A stretch of DNA of 64,000 bases from Candidatus Poribacteria bacterium (lineage in GTDB: Bacteria > Poribacteria > WGA-4E > WGA-3G): NCBI GenBank assembly GCA_965205025.1, contig CBDBFU010000025.1:1-64000 (forward strand), in the 5' to 3' direction. Positions within the stretch are counted from its first letter, which is position 1; each line of letters begins with the position of its first letter. The notes beneath the pieces are model-generated. The model saw only the letters and a list, made by a program, of their open reading frames with translations. It ran no database searches and was not told the origin of the DNA. The position numbers were made by a program, and so were the translations under genes. Shown here piece by piece: positions 41,279 to 56,789 of the stretch.

Positions 41279-43591
41279 ATGTTACGAAAAACTGTTTCAA
41301 ATTCACTTTTCCTTCTGTTTCTTTCTATAACTATAACCCTCTATGCACAAGATAATACGCAGGTAGGACTACCTGAGGGTGCAATCGCACGTCTGGGGAA
41401 AGGAGGAATTAATATAATGCAATTTTCACCTAATGGAAAACATCTTGTCGTCGGAACAGATGTCTGTCTCTGGGTATATGATACAAAGACGGGTGATGAT
41501 AAGGGTTTATTTACGGATAAACCTGGACATATTAACGCTATTGCATTTTCACCAGACGGGAAAAAGGTTGCAAGTGGTGGGTTTTCAAACCCAATAATTC
41601 AGATATGGGAATTGGAGTCCGGAAATAAACTCAATAATTTCAGATTTACCAGTGAAACAAATTCAATAAGTAGTTTAGCTTATTCTGAGGATGGTAGCAC
41701 GCTCATAATTTTAGATAAATTTGGAGAACTGAAACATTGGGATATTGAGGCAAATCAAATAGTGGCTAATACCCACGGTGTAGATAGACATGAAGTGATA
41801 ATTTATTCTGGTGTGCTTAATGCATTTGCAGCTGGTCAAGAGAATGGACGAATACACTTCTATGACGCAACTACAGGAAAACAGCAAAAAGGTTTAATTG
41901 GACATTCAAGTCTTTTTAATAGAGATGATAAAAATATTTGGTCGTTGGCATTCTCAAACGACGGAACTTTGTTGGCAAGTGGGAGTATGGATAAGACTGT
42001 CCGTTTATGGGATACTGAGAATCGTAAGCACCTTGCGAAATTCTCTTTACATGAATCATGGATTACAGCCGTAGCGTTCTCCAACGATGGTAGTATTTTG
42101 GCGAGTGGGGATGCAAATAAGAAAATCATACTGTGGGATACTGAAACAAATGCAAAAAGGGAACTGGAAGGACACACAAGTGGTATTTGTGTGCTTGCAT
42201 TTTCTCCTGATGGTACAACTTTAGCAAGTGGAAGCTATGATGGTACAATCCGCTTCTGGAATCCATCCACAGGTGAGGAAATATCAACATTCACAACAGG
42301 ACATTCGAAATTTATTACATCATTGGCATTCTCGAATGAGGATACTATACTTACCTCTGTGGATTTTAATGGTACTGTTGACCTATGGAATATGAGGACA
42401 AAACAGGGGCATTCATTCCTAAACACTGGACAAAATACAGTGGATAGCGCGACTTCCCTTTCTCATGATGCGATGCTATATGCAGCAATGGGTAATAACT
42501 ATACAACTGCATTTTATCCATTAGGTTTTGGATGGAGAGGAGGAGGTAGTGGTAGAAGAGAATCGAAGTTTCAAGTATGGAACCTATCCACAAGAGAGGA
42601 ATTGCATGGACCTTGGACGCATCAGAATTATTATATTAATGCGGTAACTTTTTCTCCTGATAGCAAGATGCTTGTAGTCAGTGACAGAGGTAGAGGTATA
42701 CTCTCATGGAACATTGATACTGGTGAAGAAACAGTCTTACTTAATCAAAGATCCCATTGGAAAAATAAACTAATTTTCTCTCCAAATGGAAGAATGGTTG
42801 CATTTCAGGGAGGACATTCCACATCACATATATGGAATTATGAGACACAACAGGAGATCACCCCTGAGTATATGAAACGTAATTCTTCAGCTATATCATT
42901 TTCTCCAGACAATATGATACTCGCGGTAGCATACCGAAATCAGATGGTATTATGGGATATTGTAGAGAATGAATTTAATGAACGAGGTAGTATGAAGATA
43001 GGTATTATAGAAGAAATAACATTCTCTCCTGATGGAAAATTAATTATTAGTGCAAACGCACAAGGATGGAAATATTACATAAAAGTTTGGGATGTAGAAA
43101 CAGGAAACGAATTACTATCATTAAACGGGCACACCGAAAAAATAAAAGTATTAAGGTTTTCTCATAATGGAAAAATACTTGCAACTGGAAGTATGGATGG
43201 AACAGTTCTTTTATGGGATTGGGAGCAGATCAAACAAAAACTCTTAATTGAACGTGTTGATAATCTTACAACTAATCTCATACCTCCTGTAATCCTGCCA
43301 GAATACGAAAGTAAAGAAGCGGAAGCTGAAGCAGTAAAATTATGGCTAAAAGAGAATGGATATACACTTGAAATCACACCAAACCGTTTTTCGCTTAAGC
43401 ATGCCGAATCAAGTAGTACTATCTCTGGCTTAGGTGGTGGCAGACTCTCCAGTGGTGATGTGGATATAGTAGTGAATAATCCCTTTTTCACTATAAAGGT
43501 ATTTAAGATTGGTACGGGGACATTTATACATGAAAATGGTGAAATCAAATATCATGAAATAGAAGAGGTAGAGAATACAAAAGAGGAATAA
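41279..43591 (+). CDS. Secreted WD40 beta-propeller protein with an extra ~115-aa C-terminal domain (array member 5)
   Basis: Same termini as the other members, plus an extension after LLWDWEQI. Confidence 0.9.
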   Translation: MLRKTVSNSLFLLFLSITITLYAQDNTQVGLPEGAIARLGKGGINIMQFSPNGKHLVVGTDVCLWVYDTKTGDDKGLFTDKPGHINAIAFSPDGKKVASGGFSNPIIQIWELESGNKLNNFRFTSETNSISSLAYSEDGSTLIILDKFGELKHWDIEANQIVANTHGVDRHEVIIYSGVLNAFAAGQENGRIHFYDATTGKQQKGLIGHSSLFNRDDKNIWSLAFSNDGTLLASGSMDKTVRLWDTENRKHLAKFSLHESWITAVAFSNDGSILASGDANKKIILWDTETNAKRELEGHTSGICVLAFSPDGTTLASGSYDGTIRFWNPSTGEEISTFTTGHSKFITSLAFSNEDTILTSVDFNGTVDLWNMRTKQGHSFLNTGQNTVDSATSLSHDAMLYAAMGNNYTTAFYPLGFGWRGGGSGRRESKFQVWNLSTREELHGPWTHQNYYINAVTFSPDSKMLVVSDRGRGILSWNIDTGEETVLLNQRSHWKNKLIFSPNGRMVAFQGGHSTSHIWNYETQQEITPEYMKRNSSAISFSPDNMILAVAYRNQMVLWDIVENEFNERGSMKIGIIEEITFSPDGKLIISANAQGWKYYIKVWDVETGNELLSLNGHTEKIKVLRFSHNGKILATGSMDGTVLLWDWEQIKQKLLIERVDNLTTNLIPPVILPEYESKEAEAEAVKLWLKENGYTLEITPNRFSLKHAESSSTISGLGGGRLSSGDVDIVVNNPFFTIKVFKIGTGTFIHENGEIKYHEIEEVENTKEE

Positions 43592-43594
43592 ACA

Positions 43595-45562
43595 ATGATT
43601 CATCATATTTTCAGACTTTTAGTTCTGTTGACAGTAACCTTTCATTTTAGTGTGTATGCTCAAGAATCAACACAGAACGGTTTACCAGACGGGGCAATAG
43701 CACGACTCGGTAAGGGTGGGATAAATCTCATGCAGTACTCTCCTGATGGGAAATATCTTGTCGTAGGAACAGATGTTGGTGTATGGGTATATGATACGAA
43801 GACTGGTGATGAGAAGGGATTACTTGCTGATAAACCTGGACAGATTAATGCACTTGCTTTTTCACCGGATAGTAAAACACTTGCCAGTGGAGGATTTGCA
43901 AACAAGATTATTCAATTGTGGAATTTGGATACTGGTAAAAAACTCAGGAATTTTATATTAACCAATGAAACAGATTCAACCCACGGTTTAGCTTTTTCTG
44001 AGGATGGTGATCTACTCATTATTTTACAGAGATCTGGAGTAATGAAACATTGGGAAATTCAAACGAATCAAATAGTGTCTAATGCCTATAAGGTGAAAGA
44101 TCATGAAGCAATTGCATATTCTAAACAGCTCAATGTTTTTGCCACTGGACTGGATAATGGGAGAATCCACTTCTATGATGCTACAACAGGAAAACCGAAA
44201 AGAGGTTTAATTGGGCATGCCAGTCTTTTTAATAGCGACGATAAGACTATTTGGAATTTATCATTCTCAAACGACGGAACTATGCTTGCCAGTGGAAGTA
44301 TGGATAAGACTGTACGATTATGGGATACAGTCAAACGAAAAAGTCTTGGAAAATTCTCTGGACATGAAACATATATCACTGCTGTGGCTCTATCTTACAA
44401 TGGGAAAATCTTGGCGAGTGGTGATGCTAAAAAGAATATAATTCTTTGGGATACGAAAACCAAGCAAAAACTGGGAGAATTGGTAGGACATACAAATGGA
44501 ATCTGTGCACTTGCGTTTTCACCTGATGGAACTACCTTAGCAAGTGGAAGTTATGATGGGACAATTCGTTTTTGGAATCCAATAAATGGAGAGGAGATAT
44601 CAATTTTCACAACTGGTCATTCAAAATGGATTCAGTCATTGGCATTTACAAGAAACGATACTACACTAACTTCTACGGATTTTAATGGTACTATCGATCT
44701 ATGGAATTTGAAAACAAAAAAGGGGCTCTCGTACTTCAATATTGGACAAGGTAAATCAGTAGGCACTGCAACTATATCACAGGATGCAGTTCTATTTTCA
44801 GCAAAAAAACATACCTATACAACTGCTTTTCACCCATTAAGTTTTAGTAGTAGGGGTGGTGGCAGTAGAATGGGTGTAAGTCTTCAAGTATGGAATATTT
44901 CGACAGGTGAAGAAATTCATGGACCTTGGGAAAATCAGAAATTGGATATAAATGCAATGACATTCTCTCCAGATAAGAAAAACTTAGTAGTAAGGGATAG
45001 ACATAAAGGCGTTTATTCATGGAATATTGATACTGGAGAGGAAAGAATTATATTTAACAATCGGTCCCAATGGGAAAATAAATTAACCTTTTCACCAAAC
45101 GGCAAATTTCTCGCGTTTAATGGTCGACATTCCTCCACACATATATGGGAGAGTGTAACATATCAAGATATAACCCCTGAGGATATGATAGAAGCCTCGG
45201 CTATAGCATTTTCACCTGACAATACACTACTTGCAATGGAGCAGCGTGATATGCTTGTTTTATGGGATATCCAAGGTACAGAATTCACAGAACGAGGAAG
45301 TATTAAAGTAGGGAACATTGAGGGGCTGCTATTTACCCCTGATGGGAAATACGTCCTATCTGCTAACATAGATAGATGGCAATATAATATAAGAATTTGG
45401 GATATCGAAACAGGAAATTATTTATTATCCTTACTCGGACACACAGAGAAAATTAAAGCAATGAGATTTTCTCATAACGGACAAATACTCGCAACTGGGA
45501 GTCTGGATGGAACTATCCTTCTATGGGATTGGGAACAAATCAGTCATAGACTTAAAAAATAA
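43595..45562 (+). CDS. Secreted WD40 beta-propeller protein (array member 6; close paralog of member 5)
   Basis: Body highly similar to 41279-43591 (NGRIHFYDATTGK..GLIGH.SLFN.DDK). Confidence 0.9.
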   Translation: MIHHIFRLLVLLTVTFHFSVYAQESTQNGLPDGAIARLGKGGINLMQYSPDGKYLVVGTDVGVWVYDTKTGDEKGLLADKPGQINALAFSPDSKTLASGGFANKIIQLWNLDTGKKLRNFILTNETDSTHGLAFSEDGDLLIILQRSGVMKHWEIQTNQIVSNAYKVKDHEAIAYSKQLNVFATGLDNGRIHFYDATTGKPKRGLIGHASLFNSDDKTIWNLSFSNDGTMLASGSMDKTVRLWDTVKRKSLGKFSGHETYITAVALSYNGKILASGDAKKNIILWDTKTKQKLGELVGHTNGICALAFSPDGTTLASGSYDGTIRFWNPINGEEISIFTTGHSKWIQSLAFTRNDTTLTSTDFNGTIDLWNLKTKKGLSYFNIGQGKSVGTATISQDAVLFSAKKHTYTTAFHPLSFSSRGGGSRMGVSLQVWNISTGEEIHGPWENQKLDINAMTFSPDKKNLVVRDRHKGVYSWNIDTGEERIIFNNRSQWENKLTFSPNGKFLAFNGRHSSTHIWESVTYQDITPEDMIEASAIAFSPDNTLLAMEQRDMLVLWDIQGTEFTERGSIKVGNIEGLLFTPDGKYVLSANIDRWQYNIRIWDIETGNYLLSLLGHTEKIKAMRFSHNGQILATGSLDGTILLWDWEQISHRLKK

Positions 45563-45636
45563 ACGTGGTGAGAATCTGATGTGAAATCAAATATCATTAA
45601 ATAGAAGATACAGAGAATATAAAATAGGAGTAAAAA

Positions 45637-47608
45637 ATGATCCATCATATTTGCAGACTCTTAGTTCTGTTGACATTAGTCTTTCACGTTATTGGGTATG
45701 CGGAAAACTCAGAACAAACCCATGTACCTGAAGGAGCTATCGCACGTTTTGGCAAGGGTGGGATAAATCTTATTCGGTTTTCACCGGACGGTTCAAAACT
45801 GGCTGTTGGAACAGATATTGGACTTTGGGTGTATGATGTCAAGGATGGTGTATCCTCTGGTTTATTTACCCGAGATATAGGTCAAGTGAATGTCCTGGCA
45901 TTTTCAAAGGATGGTGGTTTACTGGCAAGTGGTGGAGATGGGAATCCAATTCTTCAGGTTTGGAACATTCATTCCAACAAAGTCCATTCATCAGTGAATT
46001 TACATAAAGGTGAAATGGCATTACGAGCCTTAACATTTCACAACCGACTTATTTACACAATGAGCAGGTCTGCAGATATGGTCTCCTATAATCCTGATAT
46101 TGGTGTAAAATTATCTGACAATCGTTTTTATTATAATTACGGTCTCTCGACCTTCTCGGATGATGGAGCTACACTTGCAGGTGTAACTCATAATGGTGAG
46201 ATCCACTTACGTGATGTCAAGACCGGAAAAAAAATTGCACAATTAATTGGCCCTGAAGACACGAAAAAAGAAGAAATTACTATTCTTTCATTTTCTTCAG
46301 ATGGGAGGATTCTTGCAGGTGGGAGCGAGGATAAATCAGTACATTTATGGAATACTGTAAAGCATGAAAAGATCACACAATTAAAGGGATATAAAGGGTT
46401 GATAACGGCAATTGCATTTTCAGATGACAGTAAGACAATTGCAAGTGCAGATGCAAGTAAGGAAATAACCGTGTGGAATATAGATACTGGTACAAAACAG
46501 TGTTCTATCAAAGGTCATAAGAATACCATTAACACCCTAACTTTTTCTCCTTCAACAACACCCGAATACGGAATGTGTCTTGCCAGTGGTAGTGCGGATG
46601 GAACTATCCGTTTTTGGAATCCAACCGATGGAAATGAACTCACAGTATTCTCAACTGATTATACAGAAATAATAAGGGCAGTTGCATTCTCAAACAACTC
46701 TACACTTGTTTCAGCATCGTATAATGGTGGTGTAAACATTTGGAATTTGAGCACCTATGACTTAGAGGAAAGTATTAAGATAGGGGAAAATGATGCAGTT
46801 GGTTTATTAACAATTTCCTCAGATTGCACACTTATTGCAGCACAAGATTCAGAAGAATATCTAAGGTCGACAACACACGGTTACGAGATTTCTCGAGAAG
46901 CAGATAGAAATAACAATATCGGGTTATGGTCGATTCCAGTTGGCGAAAAAATTGCCGTATTACAGAGAGAACTAAAACAAGGTGATATAGATATTGCAGA
47001 GTTTGCCCCCAACAGTAATATTATTGCCATACCACAATCTGATACTATTTTTGGCTATCATGTTCTCACAGGGACTGAATTGTTTAGTTTGAAAACTGAA
47101 AGACCGAGTTTCGGTGGTAAATTAGTCTTCTCTCACGATGGAGATTGGATTGCTACGATAGGTCATCACACACATCCACATGTATGGAATTTAGAATCAC
47201 TTGATGAACCCCCAAGAGTGTCTGAGAAAGTAGGACTTTCTTTAGTCTTCTCACCTGATAGTAACACCCTTGTTCTGGTTGGGTTTGATGGGATGTACCT
47301 ATGGAAATTTAAAGCAAATTCCCAAGAGATGCAGACAATCACATTGCAGAAATTTGGTAGTTTAGATCAAACCATAGAATTTTCACCTGACGGAACTAAG
47401 CTATTGGAGTCTGCGATGAGTTTTGATTACCGAATTAGAATATGGGACATACAAACAGGCAAGATTTTAGATACCTTGTCTGTTCATACTGAGTCTGTTA
47501 CAACCTTGGCTTTCTCACCAGATACAAAGTTATTGGCAAGTGGAAGTTATGATGGAACCGTCTTATTATGGGATTGGGAGAAAAATCTCATCGAAACTGA
47601 ATCAGTAA
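45637..47608 (+). CDS. Secreted WD40 beta-propeller protein (array member 7); probable extra A near the 3' end
   Basis: The ORF as given runs to 47679 and overlaps the next gene. Removing one A from the run at 47581-47585 gives WDWEKISSKLNQ* (TAA 47606-47608), like the paralogs. Confidence 0.8.
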
Positions 47609-47623
47609 TATATGGATACATTA

Positions 47624-49611
47624 ATGAAAAGTGTATTATTTTCTATATTTCTACTCCTAATTGCGTTATACCATCATAGTTATGCTGATTATAATTCTCA
47701 TATCGGTATTCCTGAGGATGCAATTGCACGCCTTGGTAAGGGTGGAATCAATCTGATGCAGTTCTCACCAGATGGCACAAAACTGGCTGTAGGTACAGAT
47801 GTGGGGATGTGGATATACAATGTGGCAACCGGTCAAGAGACTCCTCTTTTTCCAGTCCACACTGGAGAAGTTAATGCGCTTGCTTTTTCGTCAGATGGGA
47901 GTAGGCTTGCAAGTGGTGGACGGTATGACTCGGGCCTTCATATATGGAACACAAAATCAAATAAGCTTCTTTCAACCCATACAAATTGAACAAGCACCTA
48001 AATCTTCATCATTGACGATGGCATTTAATCAGAAAACACTTATCAATATAAATAGAAATGGGATAACCTATTGGGATCAGACAACAGATGATATTAGGTC
48101 AGAATTGCTACCCAAATTCACCCAGGAATAGAGTAATGTTATCTAATAACGGTGAAATGATCGCTGTTGTTGATAAAGATAGAAAAGTCCATCTATATGA
48201 TGTTAACACAAGAAAGCGTCTAACTGTTATTGAAGGACATAAAGCCGAGGATGAAACTAAAGTTTTAGCATTAGTATTTTCCCCTGATGGCAAGTACCTT
48301 GCCAGTGGAAGTGAAGATAATACTGTTATAATATATGATATACAGAATAGTATAAAACTTGCGACACTTATAGGACATTCAGCATGGGTTACCTGCCTTG
48401 CGTTCTCAAAGGATGGGAAGACATTAGCCAGTGGAGATGCAAAAAAGGTGATAAAACTCTGGGATATAGAAAACATTTAAGGAGAGAGTGTCACTAATAG
48501 GACACAATAATACAATCTCTGCTTTGGTCTTCGCACCTATAGCATCAAAAAAATATGGAGGATGTCTGGCAAGTGGAAGTATAGATGGTACGATACGGTT
48601 TTGGAATCCAATTGATGGGAAGGAGATACAAACTTTTGCATCTGGACATATAGAATCAATTAAAGCGTTGGCATTTTCTGACACAGACATGACAATATCA
48701 ACTGGAGCAATTAATGGAACAGTAGACGTGTGGAGTTTACAAACGCACGACATCATAAACACTTTCACTAAGGGACAATGCGACGCAGTTAATCACATAG
48801 CATTCTCACCTACAGGTAAACATTATGTAAGACAGGGTTGGCAAGGATTACTGTGGTATGATTCAATCGGGTTTATTTATCAAGGAGAATTCTCTTGGAA
48901 TACTAAAGTCCAATCATGGCATATTGCATCAGGTAAAGAAATACAGAATAATTGGGTAGACGATTTAAGTGGATTTGATTATCTCATTTTTTCTCTCCTA
49001 TCGACAATATTATAGCTGTTACCAATAACAAACACTTAAGAATACATCATCTAAACACAGGTCTTGAGCTTTATGAAATTGAAATTAATTCTGATTCAGG
49101 GATAAGATCTCCGATTTTCTCACCCGATGGAAAATGGATTGCAACTCGTGGAAGGACTGGTACTGCATATATATGGAATGTACAACATCCTAATAGACCG
49201 CCATTTGTATCAACAGAGAAAGGAATTTCTATAGTATTCTCACCTGATAGCTCTACACTTGCAATTGGGAGTAGATCAGGCATCTATTTTTGGAAATTCC
49301 GTGTTAAACAAGATTCTGAACCAACCTATATCTCAAATAAAATGAGTGGTGCTCGTAATTTGTTGGCATTTTCACCTGACGGCACAATTATCTTAGTAAC
49401 ATCAGATAACTATTTCTCCGTAAAAACAATAAAACTATTGGATGTGGAAACGGGAAAAAGTTTAGGTGAATTATCCGGACACACAGAATCTATTACCACT
49501 CTTGTGTATTCACATGATGGGAAGATATTAGCAAGTGGTAGTGATGATGGAACTGTTCTGTTATGGGATTGGGAGAAAATCGTTGGACGTATTAAAGTGG
49601 AGAAATTATAA
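47624..49611 (+). pseudogene. WD40 beta-propeller protein (array member 8) broken by four frameshifts (likely sequencing errors)
   Basis: ORF pieces 47612-47989, 47799-48131, 48088-48480, 48488-49015 and 49342-49611 join into one full-length paralog after removing extra bases in homopolymer runs. Confidence 0.8.
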
Positions 49612-49625
49612 CCGAAGACTGTTAC

Positions 49626-49883
49626 CTAATAAATAATGCATGCCCCACCAGTACATACGCTTCCTGACTGTTGGGTTGCATCACCAGCATTAGATTTTGA
49701 TTCACCTGCTTCAAATTCAGATATAAGTGATACAGTATTATCAGATGGTTTCGTTATGTTAAATTGAAGTGCATCACTTGATGTAAATGCGACTGTACAA
49801 CCTGAAAGCAATCCTACGAAGAAAAATCCACCTATAAACATTAGTACCATAATACTTCCTATCTTCACGAATCTATACCTCAA
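49626..49883 (-). CDS. Small putative lipoprotein with C-terminal CTGGAC motif
   Basis: Hydrophobic leader with LSGC lipobox; ends SVCTGGACIIY; overlaps the DUF362 stop. Confidence 0.65.
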   Translation of the reverse strand: MRYRFVKIGSIMVLMFIGGFFFVGLLSGCTVAFTSSDALQFNITKPSDNTVSLISEFEAGESKSNAGDATQQSGSVCTGGACIIY

Positions 49884-50985
49884 TTTTAAGTAGATTTACC
49901 TGATCAAGTGAATTCATACCTAATTCTAAACTGGCGGCTGATGAAATATGGTTAGCGTATTTCGATATAGACCCTAATCCCATTTCCTCACGTTTTTGAT
50001 TTACTGTTTGGAGAATTAATGTATCAAGGATGACTGGATCAGGACCAACAAACATAGATCCGTACTTCCATGTGCTTTCCTCGTGATATGTGGGACCACG
50101 GTCAAAGGATGCTACCAGTCCATCAACGATATTTAATACAACTTTATCCTTAATAATCTTATTCTCAAATATCTCACCGATAGCAGGATTACAATATAAG
50201 GGTTTACCATGGAATCTTCGAGTATTATCAACACTTCCAAAAGCCATGTTCTTTAGACACCCACTCACACCTGCCATATCGTGTTGCTTTAGAACAGGCA
50301 CATTTATTACCACATCCACCAAATTAGTTAGAATACGCGAATATCTTGATCGGGTACTCTCATTTTCTCGTCTTGCAATACTATCTTTCTCTGTTTCATA
50401 GAAGACTTCATCATCATACCCAATATCATCTGTATCAGATGCGAAAGTACGTACATCCCCTTCCTCTTTCTTTATTGGATAACCTGCATTTAGAAGATGT
50501 GCTTCAAACCGATCCCAGATGATAATCTGTTTCCTTAAAACACCTGCGGTAAATAAACTCTCAATGATTTTATCGACAATTATGGAGTGTGTGCTTAGAT
50601 TTGGTCCAGCGAGTGGGTTGATTTTTATTCCAACAATTGCATCAGGTAGAATAAAATCGCGCCATGCCTCTTTTGCAGTTTCACGTCCTGTCAGTTTCAT
50701 CATAGCGTTGTCAATCATTTCACCGACAACATCTTCGTTAAGAATATCATCTTCCCAAACGGATTTACCTATGACTTCTGCGACTGGGGGTAGAGTTTCC
50801 TTTTGCACGGGATCTCTTATCACCCTACCACCAATTTGTCCGAAGGCGGGGAGTGTTGTTAATGCTGCAGTACTAAGTATACCCATCTGACCAAGGAATT
50901 GGCGACGGTTAAACTTATCTCGTTGTTCTACTGTTTCTTGGCAGTCAAGAAGAATATTATCTACAACTTTGTCGTTCTTATTCAT
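49873..50985 (-). CDS. DUF362 domain protein with Tat signal
   Basis: NRRQFL twin-arginine motif; VGIKINP; INVPVLKQH...GVSGCLKNMAFG; DPVILD. Confidence 0.85.
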   Translation of the reverse strand: MNKNDKVVDNILLDCQETVEQRDKFNRRQFLGQMGILSTAALTTLPAFGQIGGRVIRDPVQKETLPPVAEVIGKSVWEDDILNEDVVGEMIDNAMMKLTGRETAKEAWRDFILPDAIVGIKINPLAGPNLSTHSIIVDKIIESLFTAGVLRKQIIIWDRFEAHLLNAGYPIKKEEGDVRTFASDTDDIGYDDEVFYETEKDSIARRENESTRSRYSRILTNLVDVVINVPVLKQHDMAGVSGCLKNMAFGSVDNTRRFHGKPLYCNPAIGEIFENKIIKDKVVLNIVDGLVASFDRGPTYHEESTWKYGSMFVGPDPVILDTLILQTVNQKREEMGLGSISKYANHISSAASLELGMNSLDQVNLLKIEV

Positions 50986-51865
50986 TGAGTTTATTCAATT
51001 CTTCCAATGTCGTTGCGGTTGGCACTCTACCGAACTGTTTATCGAGAGATTTCCAAGCGATTGTTCCATCTGTATCAATGATAAACGTTGCAGCTCGTGA
51101 AATCTGGTTCAGCGGTTGTTCAAAAATGTTGTATAATGTGGTGGCTACCTTTTTACCATCGGATAATATGATATATGTCAGATTATTATTATCGGTTGTT
51201 CGTTTTGTTAATCCAATGCCCTCAACACTTATTGCGATTAACTCTGCTCCAGCTGCTTTAATCTCACCATAGTTTTGTTGCAACTCAACGAGTTGATTAA
51301 TGCAAGCCCCTCAGCCACCAGTACGATAGAATACAAGAACTACTCTTTTTTCTTCACCGATATAATCAGAGAGGGAATATAGATCACCGTTCCCATCAGG
51401 TAATTCAAAATCTGGTGCTTTTGCGCCAATTTTTAAACCTTCACCTGGAGGTAATTCGGTTGATTGTGGAGGTAAGTCAAACTCTTCAATTTCAGGAAAC
51501 TTTTGTTTTGTGAGAATTACTTTTTCTATTGAAACATTTGTTCCTTGAGCTACTACTACTTCCACTTCAAATTGTTCATACCCGTTAGCAACAAACATAA
51601 TTTTGTAATTTCCAGCTTCAAGATCTGTGAATTTGAAACTACCTTCCGCAACAGTCTGTCTGATTATTTGACTATCTAACAATAGGGTGGCTTGAATCGG
51701 AACACCATCAATCAACAGCACCTCTCCTTGAATTGTACCAGATGAAGTTTCAGTTCCAGGAACAACATCTAATGAATTGTCTGTATTTCCACAACCTATG
51801 ATTGTAGAGCAGATTGCAATGATTACAAAGAAGATATATGATTGATTCAATGTGTACCTCCTCAT
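50978..51865 (-). CDS. Selenoprotein: lipoprotein with beta-sandwich domain plus AhpC/TSA peroxiredoxin-like domain (UGAC motif), 295 aa
   Basis: ORFs 51311-51865 and 50978-51283 are in frame. Reading through TGA 51311-51313 gives VVLVFYRTGG-U-GAC-INQLVELQQNY. IIGC lipobox. Confidence 0.88.
51281..51295 (-). promoter_or_regulatory. Putative bacterial SECIS apical hairpin
   Basis: mRNA CAACUC-GUU-GAGUUG; the loop starts with G after a 21-nt spacer from the UGA. Confidence 0.7.
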
Positions 51866-52045
51866 CTAATTTTATTCTATCTGATTATCTCTATAATACA
51901 TCAATTAATTTATAACAAAGACAAGGTGTTATGGCTGTAGTGCTGTATTTAATAAAACAATGTACTACATAAAGTTAGAATCTACGTTAACGAGAATGAT
52001 GCAAACTCACAATATGTAGTACAGTCAGGTTAATGTTATAAATAA

Positions 52046-53146
52046 CTATAGTTTCCCTAATTCTGTCAGGATCTGTGCGGTAGGTACACGATGGTTTGTT
52101 GTTCCAAGAGTTGTCCAAGCAACAGTTCCATCTAATTTAATGACAAAGCCAGATGGACGTGCGATCCTTTTATTGTTTGGATCAATTACATTATATGCAC
52201 CAATCGTTTCTCTTTCAGAATCAGAAAGAACTGGAAACTTTAACTTTCTATTTTCAACAGAATTTTTCGTGGCTGCTTGATTATCAGAACTAATAGCGAT
52301 TAATTCTGCGCCTTCAGCTTTAATTTTGTCATAGTTTTGCTGCAACTCAACGAGTTGGTCTAAGCAGAATGGTCACCACCCACCTCTATAAAATATGACA
52401 ACGACTTTCTTACTTCCGATAAGATCTTGAAGAGCCAACAAATCACCGTCACCATTGGGAAGTTCAAAAACGGGTGCTTCACTTCCAATGCTCAAACCTT
52501 GACCTGGATCTAATTCCTCAATTACAGGAATTGCTGTGAGGGCTACATCCAATCCATAGGTTTCATTTGCTGCTATAGGATCAATATTAACTATTCCGTC
52601 ATTATATCCTTCAAGTGAGACCATTATTGTAAATGCTTGATCAACAGGGAGATTCTCAATTATAAATGTACCATCAGCTGTGGTTAAAGTTTCATGCTTT
52701 TCACCAGACTTATCTGTTAATTGGACAAGTACACCTGATAATTTATCTCCGGTTTCGGCATCTGTTAGCATACCTTTTATGTGTGATACAGGAACGGCTG
52801 ATTTTACGAGTGAAATTCTATCTAAAGATTTTGTTTCCCCTGCAGTAACAGATGCATTTAATTCTGTCGATTCATATCCTTGTGCAGACACTTGAACGGT
52901 ATAACTACCTGCTTCAAGTTCTTTAAACTCATAACTACCATCTGCTTCAACTTGTGCAACAAGGATTCCATCCTTTAACAGTCTTACTTGAACTGTAACA
53001 CCATCAATAGAATCCACTTCCCCCATGAGTGTACTCGGTTCAATTTCGACTTCTGGTGTGGGGTCGACTGGATCTTCAGTAGATCCACAACCAAATAAGA
53101 CCAATATCAAGATTGGTAATATGAGAAACAAATGTAAATGTTTCAT
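52046..53146 (-). CDS. Selenoprotein: lipoprotein with two carboxypeptidase-regulatory-like domains plus AhpC/TSA peroxiredoxin-like domain (UPFC motif), 366 aa
   Basis: ORFs 52373-53146 and 52046-52345 are in frame. Reading through TGA 52373-52375 gives VVVIFYRGGW-U-PFC-LDQLVELQQNY (canonical FYRGxWCPxC). LFGC lipobox. Confidence 0.92.
52343..52357 (-). promoter_or_regulatory. Putative bacterial SECIS apical hairpin
   Basis: Identical CAACUC-GUU-GAGUUG at the same 21-nt spacing; possible lower stem UGCU/AGCA. Confidence 0.7.
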
Positions 53147-53187
53147 GATTTTGTTCCTTTAAATCAATAATTCTTCATTAAATATAT

Positions 53188-53455
53188 CCCAAGTTGCTAC
53201 TAACTGATTTTGATCGTTTCAACACAGTTTTTCAGACTCTTTCCTCACCCCAGATGAAGTTAAAGAATTTATTCGGGTAATTTCCAGTTTCTTGTAGAAT
53301 CCTGTGCGGTTAGGAAACCGCACCTACCAGCTCTGGGTCCAAATTACCTATTTTATTTTTTTTAACTTCATGAGGGGTGATATGTCTATAGAAAGGTATA
53401 TCAACGCCCTGCACTCCAGCGGAGTGCTATATAAGTAAATAGGTGGCAACTTGGG
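53188..53455. mobile_element. MITE-like element with CCCAAGTTGCYAC TIRs and a possible 8-9 bp target duplication
   Basis: Left CCCAAGTTGCTAC; reverse complement of right CCCAAGTTGCCAC. TTAAATATA on both flanks. Contains a nested MITE and a GCACTCCAGCGGAGTGC hairpin. Confidence 0.72.
53254..53371. mobile_element. Hairpin-loop-inserted MITE (ATGAAG family), copy 5 (divergent)
   Basis: ATGAAGTTAAA...GGTAATTT / AAATTACC...TTTAACTTCAT. Flanks rejoin as TCACCCC-AG|GA-GGGGTGA. Confidence 0.85.
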
Positions 53456-53490
53456 TTAAATATAATTAATATGCTTCTGGATCATTATAT

Positions 53491-54279
53491 TTAATAGATA
53501 GATTTACTTTTTAAACTACCCCATGAGGTTGCAAGCTTACCTGCTGCCTCAACGGATGTAATTGTAGCTAATCCATCGTTCATAATGGCGTCTAAATCTG
53601 CTTCATCCAATGCAACATCATAGAGCACAACTTCATCAATAATTCCAGTGGTATATCGATCAAAATGTCGACCTATATGGAATACACCTTCACTATTACC
53701 ATATCCACTATCGGTAGCATAATCAAGTTCTGCTTCCATTTTGCCATCAACCCATAGACTTGCTTTACCAGTATCAGCATTCGCAACACCAGCAATAAAA
53801 CGCCATGTATCATCGGCAATATCAGTTGTACTTTGTGGTCTATAGCTTGTCCCTGCACTATTTCGTAGGAAGAAGGTTATCTTCTTGTCTCCACCACCAT
53901 TCCAGAACATATACCATGGAAGTGCTTGAGATTTGTCTTCATAGTTCTTACCTGCGAGTGAACCTCCGACACTTGTACCTTTGTAATATACTGTAAGAGA
54001 AAAGGATGTACCTGCTTCAAATCCTATGGCATCTGCATGTGGAACTTCGACCCAATTCCCTGCACCATCAAATTGTAGTGCTTTTCCAAATTTTCCGTCT
54101 ACCCATTGTGCTCCGTGAATTGTACCATCGTTTTCATTTTGAGATGAATCGGTTGCAACCTCTCCACTGCCTTCATCAAACAACCACATTCCTCTGATAT
54201 TATCATAACCGAATTCTGCATAACTTGAAAGTTGTAGAATAGCAAATAACCCGATGATTGCTATAACTAACCCCAACAC
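53491..54279 (-). CDS. Secreted LamG/ConA-like domain protein
   Basis: WLFDEGSG...DSS; WVDGKFGKALQFDG; GIIDEV; C-terminal GKLATSWGSLK. Start codon uncertain. Confidence 0.88.
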   Translation of the reverse strand: MLGLVIAIIGLFAILQLSSYAEFGYDNIRGMWLFDEGSGEVATDSSQNENDGTIHGAQWVDGKFGKALQFDGAGNWVEVPHADAIGFEAGTSFSLTVYYKGTSVGGSLAGKNYEDKSQALPWYMFWNGGGDKKITFFLRNSAGTSYRPQSTTDIADDTWRFIAGVANADTGKASLWVDGKMEAELDYATDSGYGNSEGVFHIGRHFDRYTTGIIDEVVLYDVALDEADLDAIMNDGLATITSVEAAGKLATSWGSLKSKSIY

Positions 54280-54306
54280 CTATATATAATCTCATTAAAA
54301 TCCCCT

Positions 54307-55101
54307 TTATTGAATCTTGACTTTTATTCTACCCCATGTGGTAGTTAATTTTTGTTTTGCGTCAACTGAAGCAGCCTCTTCAAGTCCGTTATCCATGATT
54401 GTATTCATAGCGTCTTCATCTAAAGCAGTATTGAAGAGTCCTACTTCATCAATAATCCCTGATGTATACCTATTGTAATGGCGTCCAAAATGTAATACAC
54501 TTTCAGTTGTCCCGTAGCCATCATTCTTATCGAAATCTACTTCTGCTTCTTGGTTGCCATCTATCCAGATACTGATTTTCCCGGCTTTTGCGTCTGCTCT
54601 TCCAACTACGAAGTGCCACTTATCGTCACCTATCTGACTTGTGCTATCTGCACGAAAACTCTGACTTGCGGAATTTCGTAGATATAGTGTTACTTTGTTA
54701 TCTGCACCACCATTCCATAGCAAAAACCATGGTAATACTTGTGATGTGTCTTCATAACCTTTACCAACAAGCGCCCCTCCAACTTTTGATCCCTTAAAAT
54801 ATACTGTAATTGTGAAGGAGATACCTTTCTTAAATCCGACTGTATCTGAATGATCAACTGAAACCCATCCATCTGTACCATTATATTCCAAGGCTTTGCC
54901 AAACTTTCCATCTACCCATTTGACACCACCCTCAATTTTTCCATCATTCCCGTTTGTCGAAGAATCTTTGACTGTATTTCCAGTGCCTTCATTAAAAAGC
55001 CACATACCCATGATGGTATCAGGTTCTATGGCTGCGTTCGTAGCGGTAATAAGAAGAAAACATAAACCTACTACTAATATACTTATTCGCATTATATTCA
55101 T
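54307..55101 (-). CDS. Secreted LamG/ConA-like domain protein (tandem paralog)
   Basis: WLFNEGTG; WVDGKFGKAL; GIIDEV; KLTTTWGRIK. Confidence 0.9.
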   Translation of the reverse strand: MNIMRISILVVGLCFLLITATNAAIEPDTIMGMWLFNEGTGNTVKDSSTNGNDGKIEGGVKWVDGKFGKALEYNGTDGWVSVDHSDTVGFKKGISFTITVYFKGSKVGGALVGKGYEDTSQVLPWFLLWNGGADNKVTLYLRNSASQSFRADSTSQIGDDKWHFVVGRADAKAGKISIWIDGNQEAEVDFDKNDGYGTTESVLHFGRHYNRYTSGIIDEVGLFNTALDEDAMNTIMDNGLEEAASVDAKQKLTTTWGRIKVKIQ

Positions 55102-55585: not shown

Positions 55586-56789
55586 TTAGTCAATTTCACG
55601 AATATCTAAATTTCTCTCCTCTAATGTTCTTCTACGTCGCGGTAGGTCTCCAAATAAAGGTCTGAAATACCCCGCTCCTTCAGGAGACAAGTGGTATCGC
55701 TCAGAATCGTAAAAGCGAGGATCAAGACTCCTTCTGATAACATGACCAGACTCATCACGTTTTAATACCTGATCTAATGGTAACATTATCGGTTCAATAC
55801 CTACATCAGTTCTGGTGATAGTAGCAACTCCATTTACCATTCCATCAGAAAGAGACCGTACTGCTAACGCCCCTGCTTTTATGGCGGTATCTCTATCAAG
55901 TGGTATTGGACTACCACATCTTTGTAAATATCCAAGAATTAATGCTCTAAATAAAGAACTGTTAATTTCAGGTAATCGTTTTTTCATTGCTTCAACAATA
56001 ATCTCTGAACATCCACCTGGTTTTGTATGGCCAAAGGCATCAAGTTCTGCCTGTGATGAAATCATTAATTCTCCTACATCATTTCGTATACCTTCTGAAA
56101 CAACGACGATTACATTCCCTTGTTCTGTGTGCTTCTCACGGATTGCCTCAGCTAATTTTATCAGGTTGATATGGTACTTCAGGAACAACAATTAGATCTG
56201 CCAACCCGTATGCTGCTGATAATGTCAACCATCCTGCATCCCTTCCCATTGCCTCAACAACAATCACACGGTCATGAGAGTATGTTGTTGTTCTTAGGTC
56301 ACGTACCGCATCTATCACACGACTGGCTGCAGATGGAAATCCAGGACAAAAATAATTTACCATCTTCGAATAATCTACCGAATCTCCTTCAGGAGGATTT
56401 ATACCCACATCATTATCAATAGTTTTTGTCACAAAAACTGTGGTAAACTGTTCAGACAATGCTGTACCAACAGTTAACGTATCATCTCCCCCTATTGGAA
56501 TAAGCCCACTGATATTTAGCCTCTTAAGATTATCAATTGCCTCACCTAATTTATCCGATGCAATTAGGTTCGTTCGGGAACTCTTTAAAATCGTACCTCC
56601 ATGATTCTCATCAATAAGATCAGGTGTAAGAGTAAAGTATTTACCACCCTTTAAAACTCCTCTCCAACCCTCCATAAATCCTATAAGCTCAAAACCGAGT
56701 TCCTCGGATTTTAGGGCAATACCTTTAAGGGTGGCATTGAGAGCACTTGTATCACCACCTCCTGTTAAAACACCTATCTTTTTTCGCAT
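55586..56789 (-). CDS. pfkA: 6-phosphofructokinase (PfkA family), split by one frameshift
   Basis: GVLTGGGD; GGDDT; KTIDND; EAMGRDAGW; VSEG; LGYLQR. Removing one base of the run at 56156-56159 gives PEVPYQPDKLAEAIREKH. Confidence 0.85.

What the first reader, a model, noticed from the sequence alone, without database searches (positions are those of the whole stretch)
50978..53146. Two tandem hidden selenoproteins: lipoprotein-anchored peroxiredoxin-like fusions (UPFC and UGAC) with identical SECIS-like hairpins
Seen in sequence: four ORFs in the track are two genes. Each TGA (52373-52375, 51311-51313) falls exactly at the first Cys position of the AhpC/TSA motif, giving FYRGGW-U-PFC and FYRTGG-U-GAC. 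The frame then continues for 27 nt into the downstream ORF. Both carry CAACTC-GTT-GAGTTG with the loop G after a 21-nt spacer from the UGA, although the neighbouring codons have diverged. Established knowledge: Prx-like UxxC proteins are a known bacterial selenoprotein family, and the bacterial SECIS consensus is a hairpin just 3' of the UGA with G at the start of the apical loop. Inference: the architecture is unusual, with a lipobox, one or two carboxypeptidase-regulatory-like beta-sandwich domains and then a Sec-redoxin. This implies an exported, stalk-mounted selenoenzyme.
Basis: partly seen in the sequence, partly recalled or inferred. Interest (0 to 1): 0.85.

Follow-up and report, generated by a model that had tools for sequence, protein, structure and literature searches.

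The report
Two tandem selenocysteine redox lipoprotein genes
Two neighbouring genes of a sponge-associated Poribacteria genome each carry a "stop" codon that is almost certainly read as selenocysteine, in the active site of an exported, lipid-anchored redox protein; the selenoprotein family is already known, but this domain arrangement is not described and databases cut the genes in half.

Summary
On the minus strand, 53146-52046 (366 aa) and 51865-50978 (295 aa) are single genes. Each has one in-frame TGA giving FYRGGW-U-PFC and FYRTGG-U-GAC, and the same hairpin CAACTC-GTT-GAGTTG starts 15 nt after the TGA.

The genome (Candidatus Poribacteria, 95% complete) has tRNA-Sec, selA, selB and a Sec-containing selD. 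TGA is otherwise an ordinary stop codon.

In 141 of 151 Poribacteria genomes searched, a homologue was found. Every listed match spanning the site carries one TGA, and no Cys form appeared. Synonymous sites inside the hairpin are frozen: Leu is CTC in 50/50 and TTG in 51/51, while a flanking conserved Leu uses five codons.

Cys homologues elsewhere read FYRGGWCPFC. The family is the known "Prx-like thiol:disulfide oxidoreductase" (PF00578, UxxC).

What seems undescribed:
- a lipobox followed by one to three CarboxypepD_reg beta-sandwich domains;
- the tandem gene pair;
- a linked, Tat-signalled DUF362 gene.

It does not align with the peroxidatic Cys.

This scan already noted the same family in two other Poribacteria genomes. 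Verdict: real selenoproteins, a new variant of a known kind, moderate interest.

The parts
52046..53146 (-). Gene A: 366-aa selenoprotein precursor (stop TAG included)
   Evidence: Reading TGA as U gives one open frame. Pfam AhpC-TSA 5e-30 and CarboxypepD_reg 1.5e-23. Full-length orthologues with one TGA in relatives.
53087..53146 (-). Signal peptide with lipobox (MKHLHLFLILPILILVLFG-C20)
   Evidence: Sequence. The Cys is invariant in 32 of 32 aligned homologues. A PROSITE-like lipobox is present in 37 of 51 homologues, plus 6 with N at -1. Lgt and LspA are in the genome.
52817..53035 (-). First CarboxypepD_reg-like beta-sandwich of A (about residues 38-110)
   Evidence: Pfam CarbopepD_reg_2, best stretch 46-109; PF13620 reports two stretches. 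AF2 strands 38-107 have block-mean pLDDT 91-95 from residue 41.
52535..52786 (-). Second CarboxypepD_reg-like beta-sandwich of A (residues 121-204)
   Evidence: Pfam PF13620, best stretch 123-204. AF2 strands 121-203.
52049..52489 (-). Thioredoxin-fold Prx-like domain of A (residues 220-366) with U258-P-F-C261
   Evidence: Pfam AhpC-TSA 220-344. PDB by sequence: BCP 2cx3 2.3e-16, ResA 3c71 3.3e-15. Foldseek: Bcp4, AhpE, ResA with TMt 0.82-0.93.
52373..52375 (-). In-frame TGA of A, read as Sec258
   Evidence: The same alignment column is TGA in 51 of 51 homologous genes from 30 loci.
52343..52357 (-). SECIS-like hairpin of A: CAACUC-GUU-GAGUUG
   Evidence: RNAalifold on 51 sequences predicts just this helix. 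Synonymous sites are frozen. One compensatory change and two G-U changes.
50978..51865 (-). Gene B: 295-aa selenoprotein precursor (stop TAA included)
   Evidence: Pfam AhpC-TSA 4.2e-28. The tandem partner is conserved in the genus.
51791..51865 (-). Signal peptide with lipobox of B (…STIIG-C25)
51524..51736 (-). Single CarboxypepD_reg-like domain of B (residues 44-114)
   Evidence: Pfam PF13620 1.1e-6, 29.3 bits, below the 32.3-bit cut-off. It aligns with the first sandwich of A.
50981..51430 (-). Prx-like domain of B (residues 146-295) with U185-G-A-C188
   Evidence: Pfam AhpC-TSA 146-271.
51311..51313 (-). In-frame TGA of B, read as Sec185
51281..51295 (-). SECIS-like hairpin of B, identical to that of A
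49873..50985 (-). DUF362 gene with a twin-arginine signal (RRQFLG). Its ATG overlaps the end of gene B by 8 nt (ATGAATAA).
   Evidence: Pfam DUF362 1.8e-18. The overlap is read. The gene is found beside the selenoprotein gene(s) in 21 of the 30 loci, including four loci of genus g5 in another family.

Best explanation
Genes A and B are two paralogous selenoproteins of the 'Prx-like thiol:disulfide oxidoreductase' family (PF00578, UxxC). The ribosome reaches the in-frame UGA. SelB carrying Sec-tRNA(Sec) binds the 6-7 bp hairpin that starts 15 nt downstream and has G as the first loop base, and Sec is inserted instead of terminating. This step is inferred from conservation and not shown biochemically. 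The N-terminal signal peptide sends the chain through the Sec translocon, and Lgt and LspA lipidate and cleave it at the invariant Cys (inferred). One beta-sandwich domain in B, two in A and three in some relatives hold a C-terminal thioredoxin-fold domain away from the membrane. In that domain, Sec and the Cys three residues later cycle between selenol/thiol and selenenylsulfide. The enzyme most likely reduces disulfides, sulfenic acids or peroxides on envelope or extracellular substrates. It is probably recharged through a DsbD-type membrane reductase. A and B are probably co-expressed with a Tat-exported DUF362 protein.
For: Sec machinery: tRNA-Sec at 78.5 bits against a 47-bit cut-off, with anticodon tca; selB adjacent to it; selA at 518.8 bits; selD with one in-frame TGA. 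TGA is an ordinary stop elsewhere, closing 384 of 2206 long frames. Conservation: 41 of 41 genomes of the order and 141 of 151 of the phylum have a match. All 150 rows listed carry one TGA. In one search the only rows without a TGA are 21 that end at or before residue 211. TGA stands in the same column in 51 of 51 genes. Downstream residues are invariant in 32 of 32 sequences (C261, Q264, E267, L268, Q269, R353 and others). RNA-level selection: Leu+7 is CTC in 50/50, Leu+10 is TTG in 51/51 and Glu+9 is GAG in 50/51. In the same sequences Leu+24 uses 5 codons and Glu+23 is GAA in 43/47. Genome-wide, CTC is 12% and TTG 15% of Leu codons, and GAG is 24% of Glu codons. There is one compensatory C-G to U-A change and two A-U to G-U changes. 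RNAalifold predicts only this helix. Cys homologues read FYRGGWCPFC, and none of 9 fetched has QLxELQ, so that peptide motif goes with the SECIS. Export: the lipobox Cys is invariant in 32 of 32, and Lgt, LspA and a DsbD_TM protein are in the genome. Fold: AF2 pLDDT 88.4, with Prx and ResA as nearest structures. The family is named in the tables of PMC9312934 and PMC13188914 and as 'Prx-like 1' in PMC2398784 (passages seen).
Against: There is no protein, selenium-labelling or RNA evidence. Folded alone, the hairpin is no more stable than shuffled sequence. Covariation is thin, with 1 compensatory pair in 51 sequences and 6 of 500 shuffles doing as well, because the helix hardly varies. A 3-nt loop on a 6-7 bp stem is at the small end of what I recall of the bSECIS model; the model's criteria were not seen in any paper read here. 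Neither the substrate nor the reductant has been identified. The localisation (inner membrane, outer membrane or cell surface) is unknown.
Confidence: 0.87

Rival explanations
1. The proteins are selenoproteins as described, but they act as true peroxiredoxins that reduce peroxide, not as thiol:disulfide oxidoreductases.
For: The best PDB and Foldseek matches include the peroxidases BCP, Bcp4 and AhpE. The Cys of UxxC aligns with the peroxidatic Cys of BCP. An Arg before the FxI strand (IARPSGF in A, ISRAATF in B) is kept in most homologues. Selenols react fast with peroxides (general knowledge).
Against: The Pro and Thr of the PxxxTxxC motif are replaced by Arg and Sec. ResA-type CxxC reductases match equally well (3.3e-15; NCBIfam ResA is the top hit at 62 bits). 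The same genome holds a canonical TxxU peroxiredoxin at C12. The published family name is thiol:disulfide oxidoreductase (PMC9312934, passage seen).
Confidence: 0.3
2. The hairpin is only a by-product of a conserved peptide (QLxELQ). UGA is read through some other way, by near-cognate tRNA or a variant genetic code, inserting Trp, Cys or Gly rather than Sec.
For: The hairpin is short and not thermodynamically distinctive. Covariation is minimal.
Against: Synonymous sites in the hairpin are frozen while flanking conserved codons drift. Cys homologues lack the peptide motif in 9 of 9 cases. The full Sec machinery is present. TGA ends 17% of long frames, and in several orthologues it ends these very genes just after ...GKL. 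The recoded site is the redox Cys position.
Confidence: 0.04
3. The TGAs are real stops. The locus holds four separate genes, or two decaying pseudogenes.
For: Public annotations call the 254-302-aa N-terminal pieces as separate proteins: the first 90 hits (P0003-P0092).
Against: A stop here would cut the thioredoxin fold at its active site. The 'downstream ORFs' start at a TTG inside the hairpin. One TGA and an intact downstream frame are kept in 141 of 151 genomes at 40-90% identity. No other stops or frameshifts occur, apart from one row with an extra TAA.
Confidence: 0.02

Closest known systems
Prx-like thiol:disulfide oxidoreductase selenoproteins (PF00578, UxxC/UxxU), called 'Prx-like 1' in the GOS survey (PMC2398784, Table 2, passage seen; PMC9312934 and PMC13188914, tables, passages seen)
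   Same: The AhpC-TSA domain, Sec as the first residue of UxxC, abundant Cys homologues with CxxC, and a SECIS just 3' of the UGA inside the coding region.
   Different: Here the domain is the C-terminal end of a lipoprotein with one to three CarboxypepD_reg beta-sandwich domains. The genes stand in tandem and are linked to a Tat-signalled DUF362 gene. The Sec form is fixed across a whole phylum, with no Cys form found among the rows listed. None of these features appears in the passages I read. The GOS paper's Figure S1 on fusions is a supplement that I could not see.
Cys-containing 'peroxiredoxin-like family proteins' with FYRGGWCPFC (for example P0095 Woeseiaceae, P0110 Flavobacterium, P0119 Polyangiaceae)
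   Same: The same active-site heptapeptide as gene A, with 30-43% identity over the redoxin domain.
   Different: They have Cys instead of Sec and are 200-260 aa long without beta-sandwich domains. None of 9 has the QLxELQ motif that encodes the hairpin.
ResA/TlpA-type extracytoplasmic thiol-disulfide oxidoreductases (PDB 3c71, 1st9)
   Same: A membrane-tethered thioredoxin fold facing the envelope. Their W-C-P-x-C motif aligns with W-U-P-F-C. I recall that they are recharged through CcdA/DsbD.
   Different: The NCBIfam ResA score is 62 bits against a cut-off of 170. They use Cys, not Sec; a transmembrane anchor rather than a lipobox plus stalk; and they have a role in cytochrome c maturation that is not indicated here.
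BCP/PrxQ and AhpE peroxiredoxins (PDB 2cx3, 3hjp, 1xvw)
   Same: The fold (TMt 0.87-0.93), a Cys at the peroxidatic position, and a mostly conserved Arg.
   Different: The Pro and Thr/Ser of PxxxT/SxxC are replaced by Arg and Sec. These peroxiredoxins are cytoplasmic, single-domain proteins.

Membership tests
Bacterial SelB/SECIS-decoded selenoprotein | In-frame UGA conserved among orthologues, with conserved coding sequence downstream | tested here: met
   TGA in 51 of 51 aligned genes. One TGA in all 150 listed matches from the phylum. Invariant residues lie downstream.
Bacterial SelB/SECIS-decoded selenoprotein | tRNA-Sec, SelA, SelB and SelD present in the genome | tested here: met
   All four score above the curated cut-offs.
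Bacterial SelB/SECIS-decoded selenoprotein | Hairpin shortly 3' of the UGA with G at the start of the apical loop (bSECIS model, criteria recalled) | tested here: met
   A 6-7 bp helix starts 15 nt after the UGA. The first loop base is G in 50 of 51 sequences. Synonymous sites are frozen. RNAalifold predicts the helix. Its stability is not above shuffles.
Bacterial SelB/SECIS-decoded selenoprotein | Homologues with Cys at the Sec position | tested here: met
   FYRGGWCPFC in the 9 Cys homologues fetched.
Bacterial SelB/SECIS-decoded selenoprotein | Selenium shown in the protein | not testable with these tools
   This needs 75Se labelling or mass spectrometry.
Prx-like thiol:disulfide oxidoreductase (PF00578, UxxC) | AhpC-TSA domain above Pfam's gathering score, spanning the Sec | tested here: met
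   104.4 and 98.2 bits against a cut-off of 26.
Prx-like thiol:disulfide oxidoreductase (PF00578, UxxC) | UxxC redox motif | tested here: met
   U-PF-C and U-GA-C. U and C are invariant in 51 of 51.
Canonical peroxiredoxin | PxxxT/SxxC active-site motif with the peroxidatic Cys, plus a conserved Arg | tested here: not met
   In the alignment to 2cx3, Pro is replaced by Arg and Ser/Thr by Sec. The Cys and, in most homologues, the Arg are kept.
ResA (NCBIfam NF002854) and SelL-related redox protein (NF040769) | Score above the curated cut-off | tested here: not met
   62.4 bits against 170, and 42.8 bits against 120.
Bacterial lipoprotein | Signal peptide ending in a lipobox with an invariant Cys, and Lgt and LspA in the genome | tested here: met
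   No dedicated signal-peptide predictor was available.
Bacterial lipoprotein | Acylation and cleavage shown | not testable with these tools
   This is an experimental test.

The most novel reading that the evidence does not exclude
Poribacteria have a phylum-wide, strictly selenium-dependent redox module outside the cytoplasm. Sec-redoxins are lipid-anchored on beta-sandwich stalks of adjustable length (1-3 domains). They work together with a Tat-exported DUF362 protein of unknown function, as an envelope or surface defence or signalling system fitted to life inside sponge tissue. The SECIS is so constrained that it has fixed the peptide QLxELQ in the enzyme.
Probability: 0.2. Interest if true: 0.6.

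Novelty: new variant of a known kind. Interest (0 to 1): 0.4.

Why it matters
- Annotation: every close database entry seen ends at the TGA. These are the first 90 hits, named 'hypothetical', 'carboxypeptidase regulatory-like' or 'redoxin domain-containing'. The active redox domain of a protein present in most Poribacteria genomes is therefore missing from public protein sets.
- Biology: the family appears to be kept only in its Sec form across a phylum of sponge symbionts. It is exported and tethered, which points to selenium-dependent redox chemistry at the symbiont's envelope. It also offers a first functional lead for DUF362.
- SECIS evolution: the near-invariant hairpin shows clearly how an RNA signal inside a coding region freezes both synonymous sites and a peptide motif.
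- Limit: the selenoprotein family itself is well known, and this scan has already reported it from other Poribacteria genomes.

Tried and rejected
- Single-sequence folding of four 60-nt stretches: z from -0.03 to +1.26 against shuffles, so energy alone says nothing.
- Promoter and terminator scan of 49700-53500: 15 promoter-like sites against 14.6 expected, and 1 terminator-like site (on the plus strand) against 2.2 expected. Uninformative.
- tRNA scan of the window: none found. The tRNA-Sec lies on another contig.
- The look-up of sequencing runs: no RNA holder listed.
- Read laying on X1-X4: contigs only. X1 and X2 are identical over the whole stretch and may be the source. X3, from another study, carries a relative (46 other letters in 994 and 100 in 1295). 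None of the 40 rows shown touches 51311-51313 or 52373-52375, but 121 rows were not shown, so I draw nothing from it.
- PDB sequence search with the DUF362 protein: no match at E <= 0.01.
- DUF362 literature: 14 papers listed. In the one I opened, passages say only that it shares a Pfam clan with LarA's DUF2088.
It was repeated with the single protein, which reaches only close relatives. That gave 4 of 8 loci in Poribacteria MAGs carrying the redoxin part; the other 4 (Acidoferrales, Bacteroidetes) match only residues 52-132.
- Considered and rejected: a global TGA reassignment, pseudogenes, and a four-gene split.
- Not attempted: a census of all selenoprotein genes in the genome, and complex prediction with DUF362, because I do not claim binding.
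Full report
**Observation.** On the minus strand the four ORFs of the track are two genes.
- Gene A (53146-52046) reads through TGA 52375-52373 as a 366-aa protein with ...FYRGGW-U-PFCLDQLVELQ.
- Gene B (51865-50978) reads through TGA 51313-51311 as a 295-aa protein with ...FYRTGG-U-GACINQLVELQ.
- In both, the 'downstream ORF' begins 27 nt after the TGA at a TTG that is the last codon of the hairpin CAACTC-GTT-GAGTTG. The hairpin starts 15 nt after the TGA.
- Pfam's AhpC-TSA model matches across the TGA (E 5e-30 and 4e-28). PF13620 CarboxypepD_reg matches twice in A. In B it matches once, just below the cut-off.
- The 15-nt hairpin pattern occurs at four sites in the 5.66-Mb genome. Three of them lie exactly 15 nt after the in-frame TGA of a Prx-like gene: the two here and a third on contig C23.

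**Organism and Sec machinery.** Close database hits and related loci are named Candidatus Poribacteria. The assembly is 95.5% complete, in 33 contigs, with 38.5% G+C. It holds:
- a tRNA-Sec (78.5 bits against a cut-off of 47; ARAGORN anticodon tca);
- selB directly beside it;
- selA (518.8 bits);
- selD with its own in-frame TGA.

TGA closes 384 of 2206 stop-to-stop frames of 300 or more codons. In several orthologues TGA ends these very genes right after ...GKL. TGA is therefore a normal stop unless a signal follows it. The same genome has three more AhpC/TSA-type frames with TGA in the active-site motif, at the Sec or peroxidatic-Cys position. One of them, on C12, is a canonical TxxU peroxiredoxin.

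**Comparative evidence.**
- Order level: 41 of 41 genomes of the order (8 genera, 4 families) have a match. The only listed rows without a TGA are 21 that cover just the N-terminal domains and end at or before residue 211. A further 22 rows were not listed.
- Phylum level: 141 of 151 genomes match at E <= 1e-25, and all 150 listed rows carry one TGA; one row has an extra TAA. A further 181 rows were not listed. No Cys form appeared among the listed rows.
- From the 30 loci fetched I extracted 51 genes by a motif pattern that includes the U. TGA stands in the same column in all 51.
- Residues after the TGA are invariant in the 32-sequence protein alignment: C261, Q264, E267, L268, Q269, R353 and others.
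- These rows are related genomes and not independent trials. Even so, identities fall to 40-60%, which leaves ample time for a non-functional stop to decay.

**The hairpin.** RNAalifold on the 51 x 120-nt alignment predicts this helix and nothing else.
- Pair counts: 4 of 7 pairs never vary, one shows A-U to G-U in 2 sequences, and one shows a compensatory C-G to U-A change in L040. The optional seventh G-C pair is present in 31 of 51 sequences. Covariation is thin, with 6 of 500 shuffles reaching the observed value.
- Folded alone, the stretches are no more stable than shuffles.
- The decisive evidence is at synonymous sites. Leu+7 is CTC in 50 of 50, Leu+10 is TTG in 51 of 51, Glu+9 is GAG in 50 of 51 and Gln+6 is CAA in 49 of 51.
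- In the same sequences the conserved Leu+24 uses five codons and Glu+23 is GAA in 43 of 47. Genome-wide, CTC and TTG make up 12% and 15% of Leu codons and GAG 24% of Glu codons.
- The first loop base is G in 50 of 51.
- The Cys homologues from other phyla read FYRGGWCPFC, and none of 9 has QLxELQ. That peptide motif is best explained as the imprint of the RNA signal.
- The position (loop G 21 nt after the UGA) and the loop G fit the bSECIS model as I recall it. I did not see the model's criteria in the papers read.

**What the proteins are.** The published family is 'Prx-like thiol:disulfide oxidoreductase' (PF00578, UxxC/UxxU). It is listed as predicted with high confidence in PMC13188914 and PMC9312934. 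In the GOS survey it appears as 'Prx-like 1', with 225 Sec and 2,740 Cys sequences (PMC2398784). In each paper I saw passages only.
- By sequence, the nearest solved structures are a BCP peroxidase (2cx3, 2.3e-16) and ResA (3c71, 3.3e-15).
- In the BCP alignment, Sec falls on the Ser of PxxxS/TxxC, the Pro is replaced by Arg, and the second Cys falls on the peroxidatic Cys. In ResA, Sec falls on the N-terminal Cys of W-C-P-H-C.
- The motif is therefore a thioredoxin-type redox pair, not a canonical peroxiredoxin centre.
- No NCBIfam model reaches its cut-off; ResA is best at 62 bits against 170.
- The AlphaFold2 model built from 32 read-through homologues has mean pLDDT 88.4. Residues 1-32 are disordered. 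Two beta-sandwiches are followed by a thioredoxin fold. pTM is 0.58, so the mutual arrangement of the domains is uncertain. Foldseek matches only the last domain (Bcp4, AhpE, ResA).

**Export and architecture.**
- The lipobox Cys is invariant in 32 of 32 aligned homologues.
- A PROSITE-like lipobox pattern is met in 37 of 51 genes, and 6 more have N at -1. Of the other 8, two are cut at the 5' end or masked, and six show a G-C lipobox that my pattern missed.
- Lgt, LspA and a 626-aa DsbD_TM protein are encoded elsewhere in the genome.
- The number of beta-sandwich domains is 1 in B-type genes and in genus g5, 2 in A-type genes, and 3 in L042. This suits a spacer role.
- All of the first 90 database hits (P0003-P0092) are 254-302-aa pieces; those checked end at ...FYRGGW. 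They are unnamed, or named hypothetical, carboxypeptidase regulatory-like or redoxin domain-containing. Only 120 of 175 hits were listed.
- No full-length Cys protein with this architecture appeared in that search (201-641 aa searched). The single-protein locus search found the redoxin part only in Poribacteria MAGs.

**Context.** Gene B's end overlaps by 8 nt the ATG of a DUF362 gene with a twin-arginine signal. A DUF362 homologue lies beside the selenoprotein gene(s) in 21 of the 30 loci, including four loci of another family at 52-54% identity. Several of the remaining loci end too early to tell. DUF362 has no known function. It shares a Pfam clan with the LarA N-terminal domain (PMC11770544, passages), and no solved relative was found by sequence. 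Two LamG-like genes upstream are conserved within the genus. I claim linkage only, not interaction.

**Mechanism and rivals.** Most likely (0.87) Sec is inserted through SelB and the hairpin, and the products are lipid-anchored, extracytoplasmic UxxC redoxins. Within that reading I favour disulfide or sulfenate reduction over classical peroxidase chemistry, at roughly 0.6 to 0.3. Read-through without Sec (0.04) and true stops or pseudogenes (0.02) are contradicted by the synonymous-site pattern, the Sec machinery and the phylum-wide conservation.

**Novelty.** The family and the way it is decoded are known. The lipobox-stalk architecture, the tandem pair, the DUF362 linkage and the Sec-only state across Poribacteria are not in the passages I read.
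- Searches for Poribacteria with selenoprotein or selenocysteine returned 1 and 3 papers. The one I opened concerns NiFeSe hydrogenases; by their listed titles the others concern sponge microbiomes.
- 'Carboxypeptidase regulatory-like' with selenoprotein returned none.
- Supplements, which may list such fusions, were closed.
- This scan had already noted the same family in two other Poribacteria genomes (e1-4904560, e1-4729285) and another Sec family in this genome (e1-1430439).

Verdict: a correct first reading, a new variant of a known kind, interest 0.4.

Noticed in passing
own genome, contig C23:107588-108064 (-): A third Prx-like gene with in-frame TGA (FYATST-U-TVC). It has the same hairpin with an AGG loop, 15 nt after the TGA.
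   Followed up: partly
own genome, contigs C2:184688-185149 (-) and C12:2285-2680 (+): Two more AhpC/TSA-type frames with in-frame TGA. One is a UxxS form (FFRGTW-U-PNS). The other is a canonical peroxiredoxin TxxU form (FTGG-U) with a different, larger downstream hairpin.
   Followed up: partly
own genome, contig C4:104148-105074 (-): selD itself carries one in-frame TGA (…KCAG-U-ASKL), so the Sec pathway depends on Sec.
   Followed up: partly
window 47612-49611 (+): After three intact WD40-repeat genes (41279-47679), a further WD40 gene appears broken into several overlapping ORFs in different frames. It may be a decayed copy or may reflect assembly errors.
   Followed up: no
window 55586-56789 (-): Phosphofructokinase is split into two overlapping ORFs matching Pfam PFK positions 1-200 and 194-275. 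This suggests a frameshift or a sequencing error.
   Followed up: no
window 53491-55101 (-): Two paralogous LamG-like (Laminin_G_3) secreted proteins lie directly upstream of gene A. This neighbourhood is conserved within the genus.
   Followed up: partly
loci L019-L023, L026, L027, L032, L036 (3' ends of the orthologues): Several orthologues end with TGA right after ...GKL. Reading TGA as U adds spurious tails there, so the same codon serves as stop and as Sec within one gene.
   Followed up: partly
window 52341-52378 and 51045-51069, runs X1, X2, X4: High-depth contigs of other community members match only these short stretches: the TGA-plus-hairpin stretch (4-5 other letters in 38) and a 25-nt stretch. 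The signal region may be conserved at the DNA level in other organisms of the same samples.
   Followed up: no
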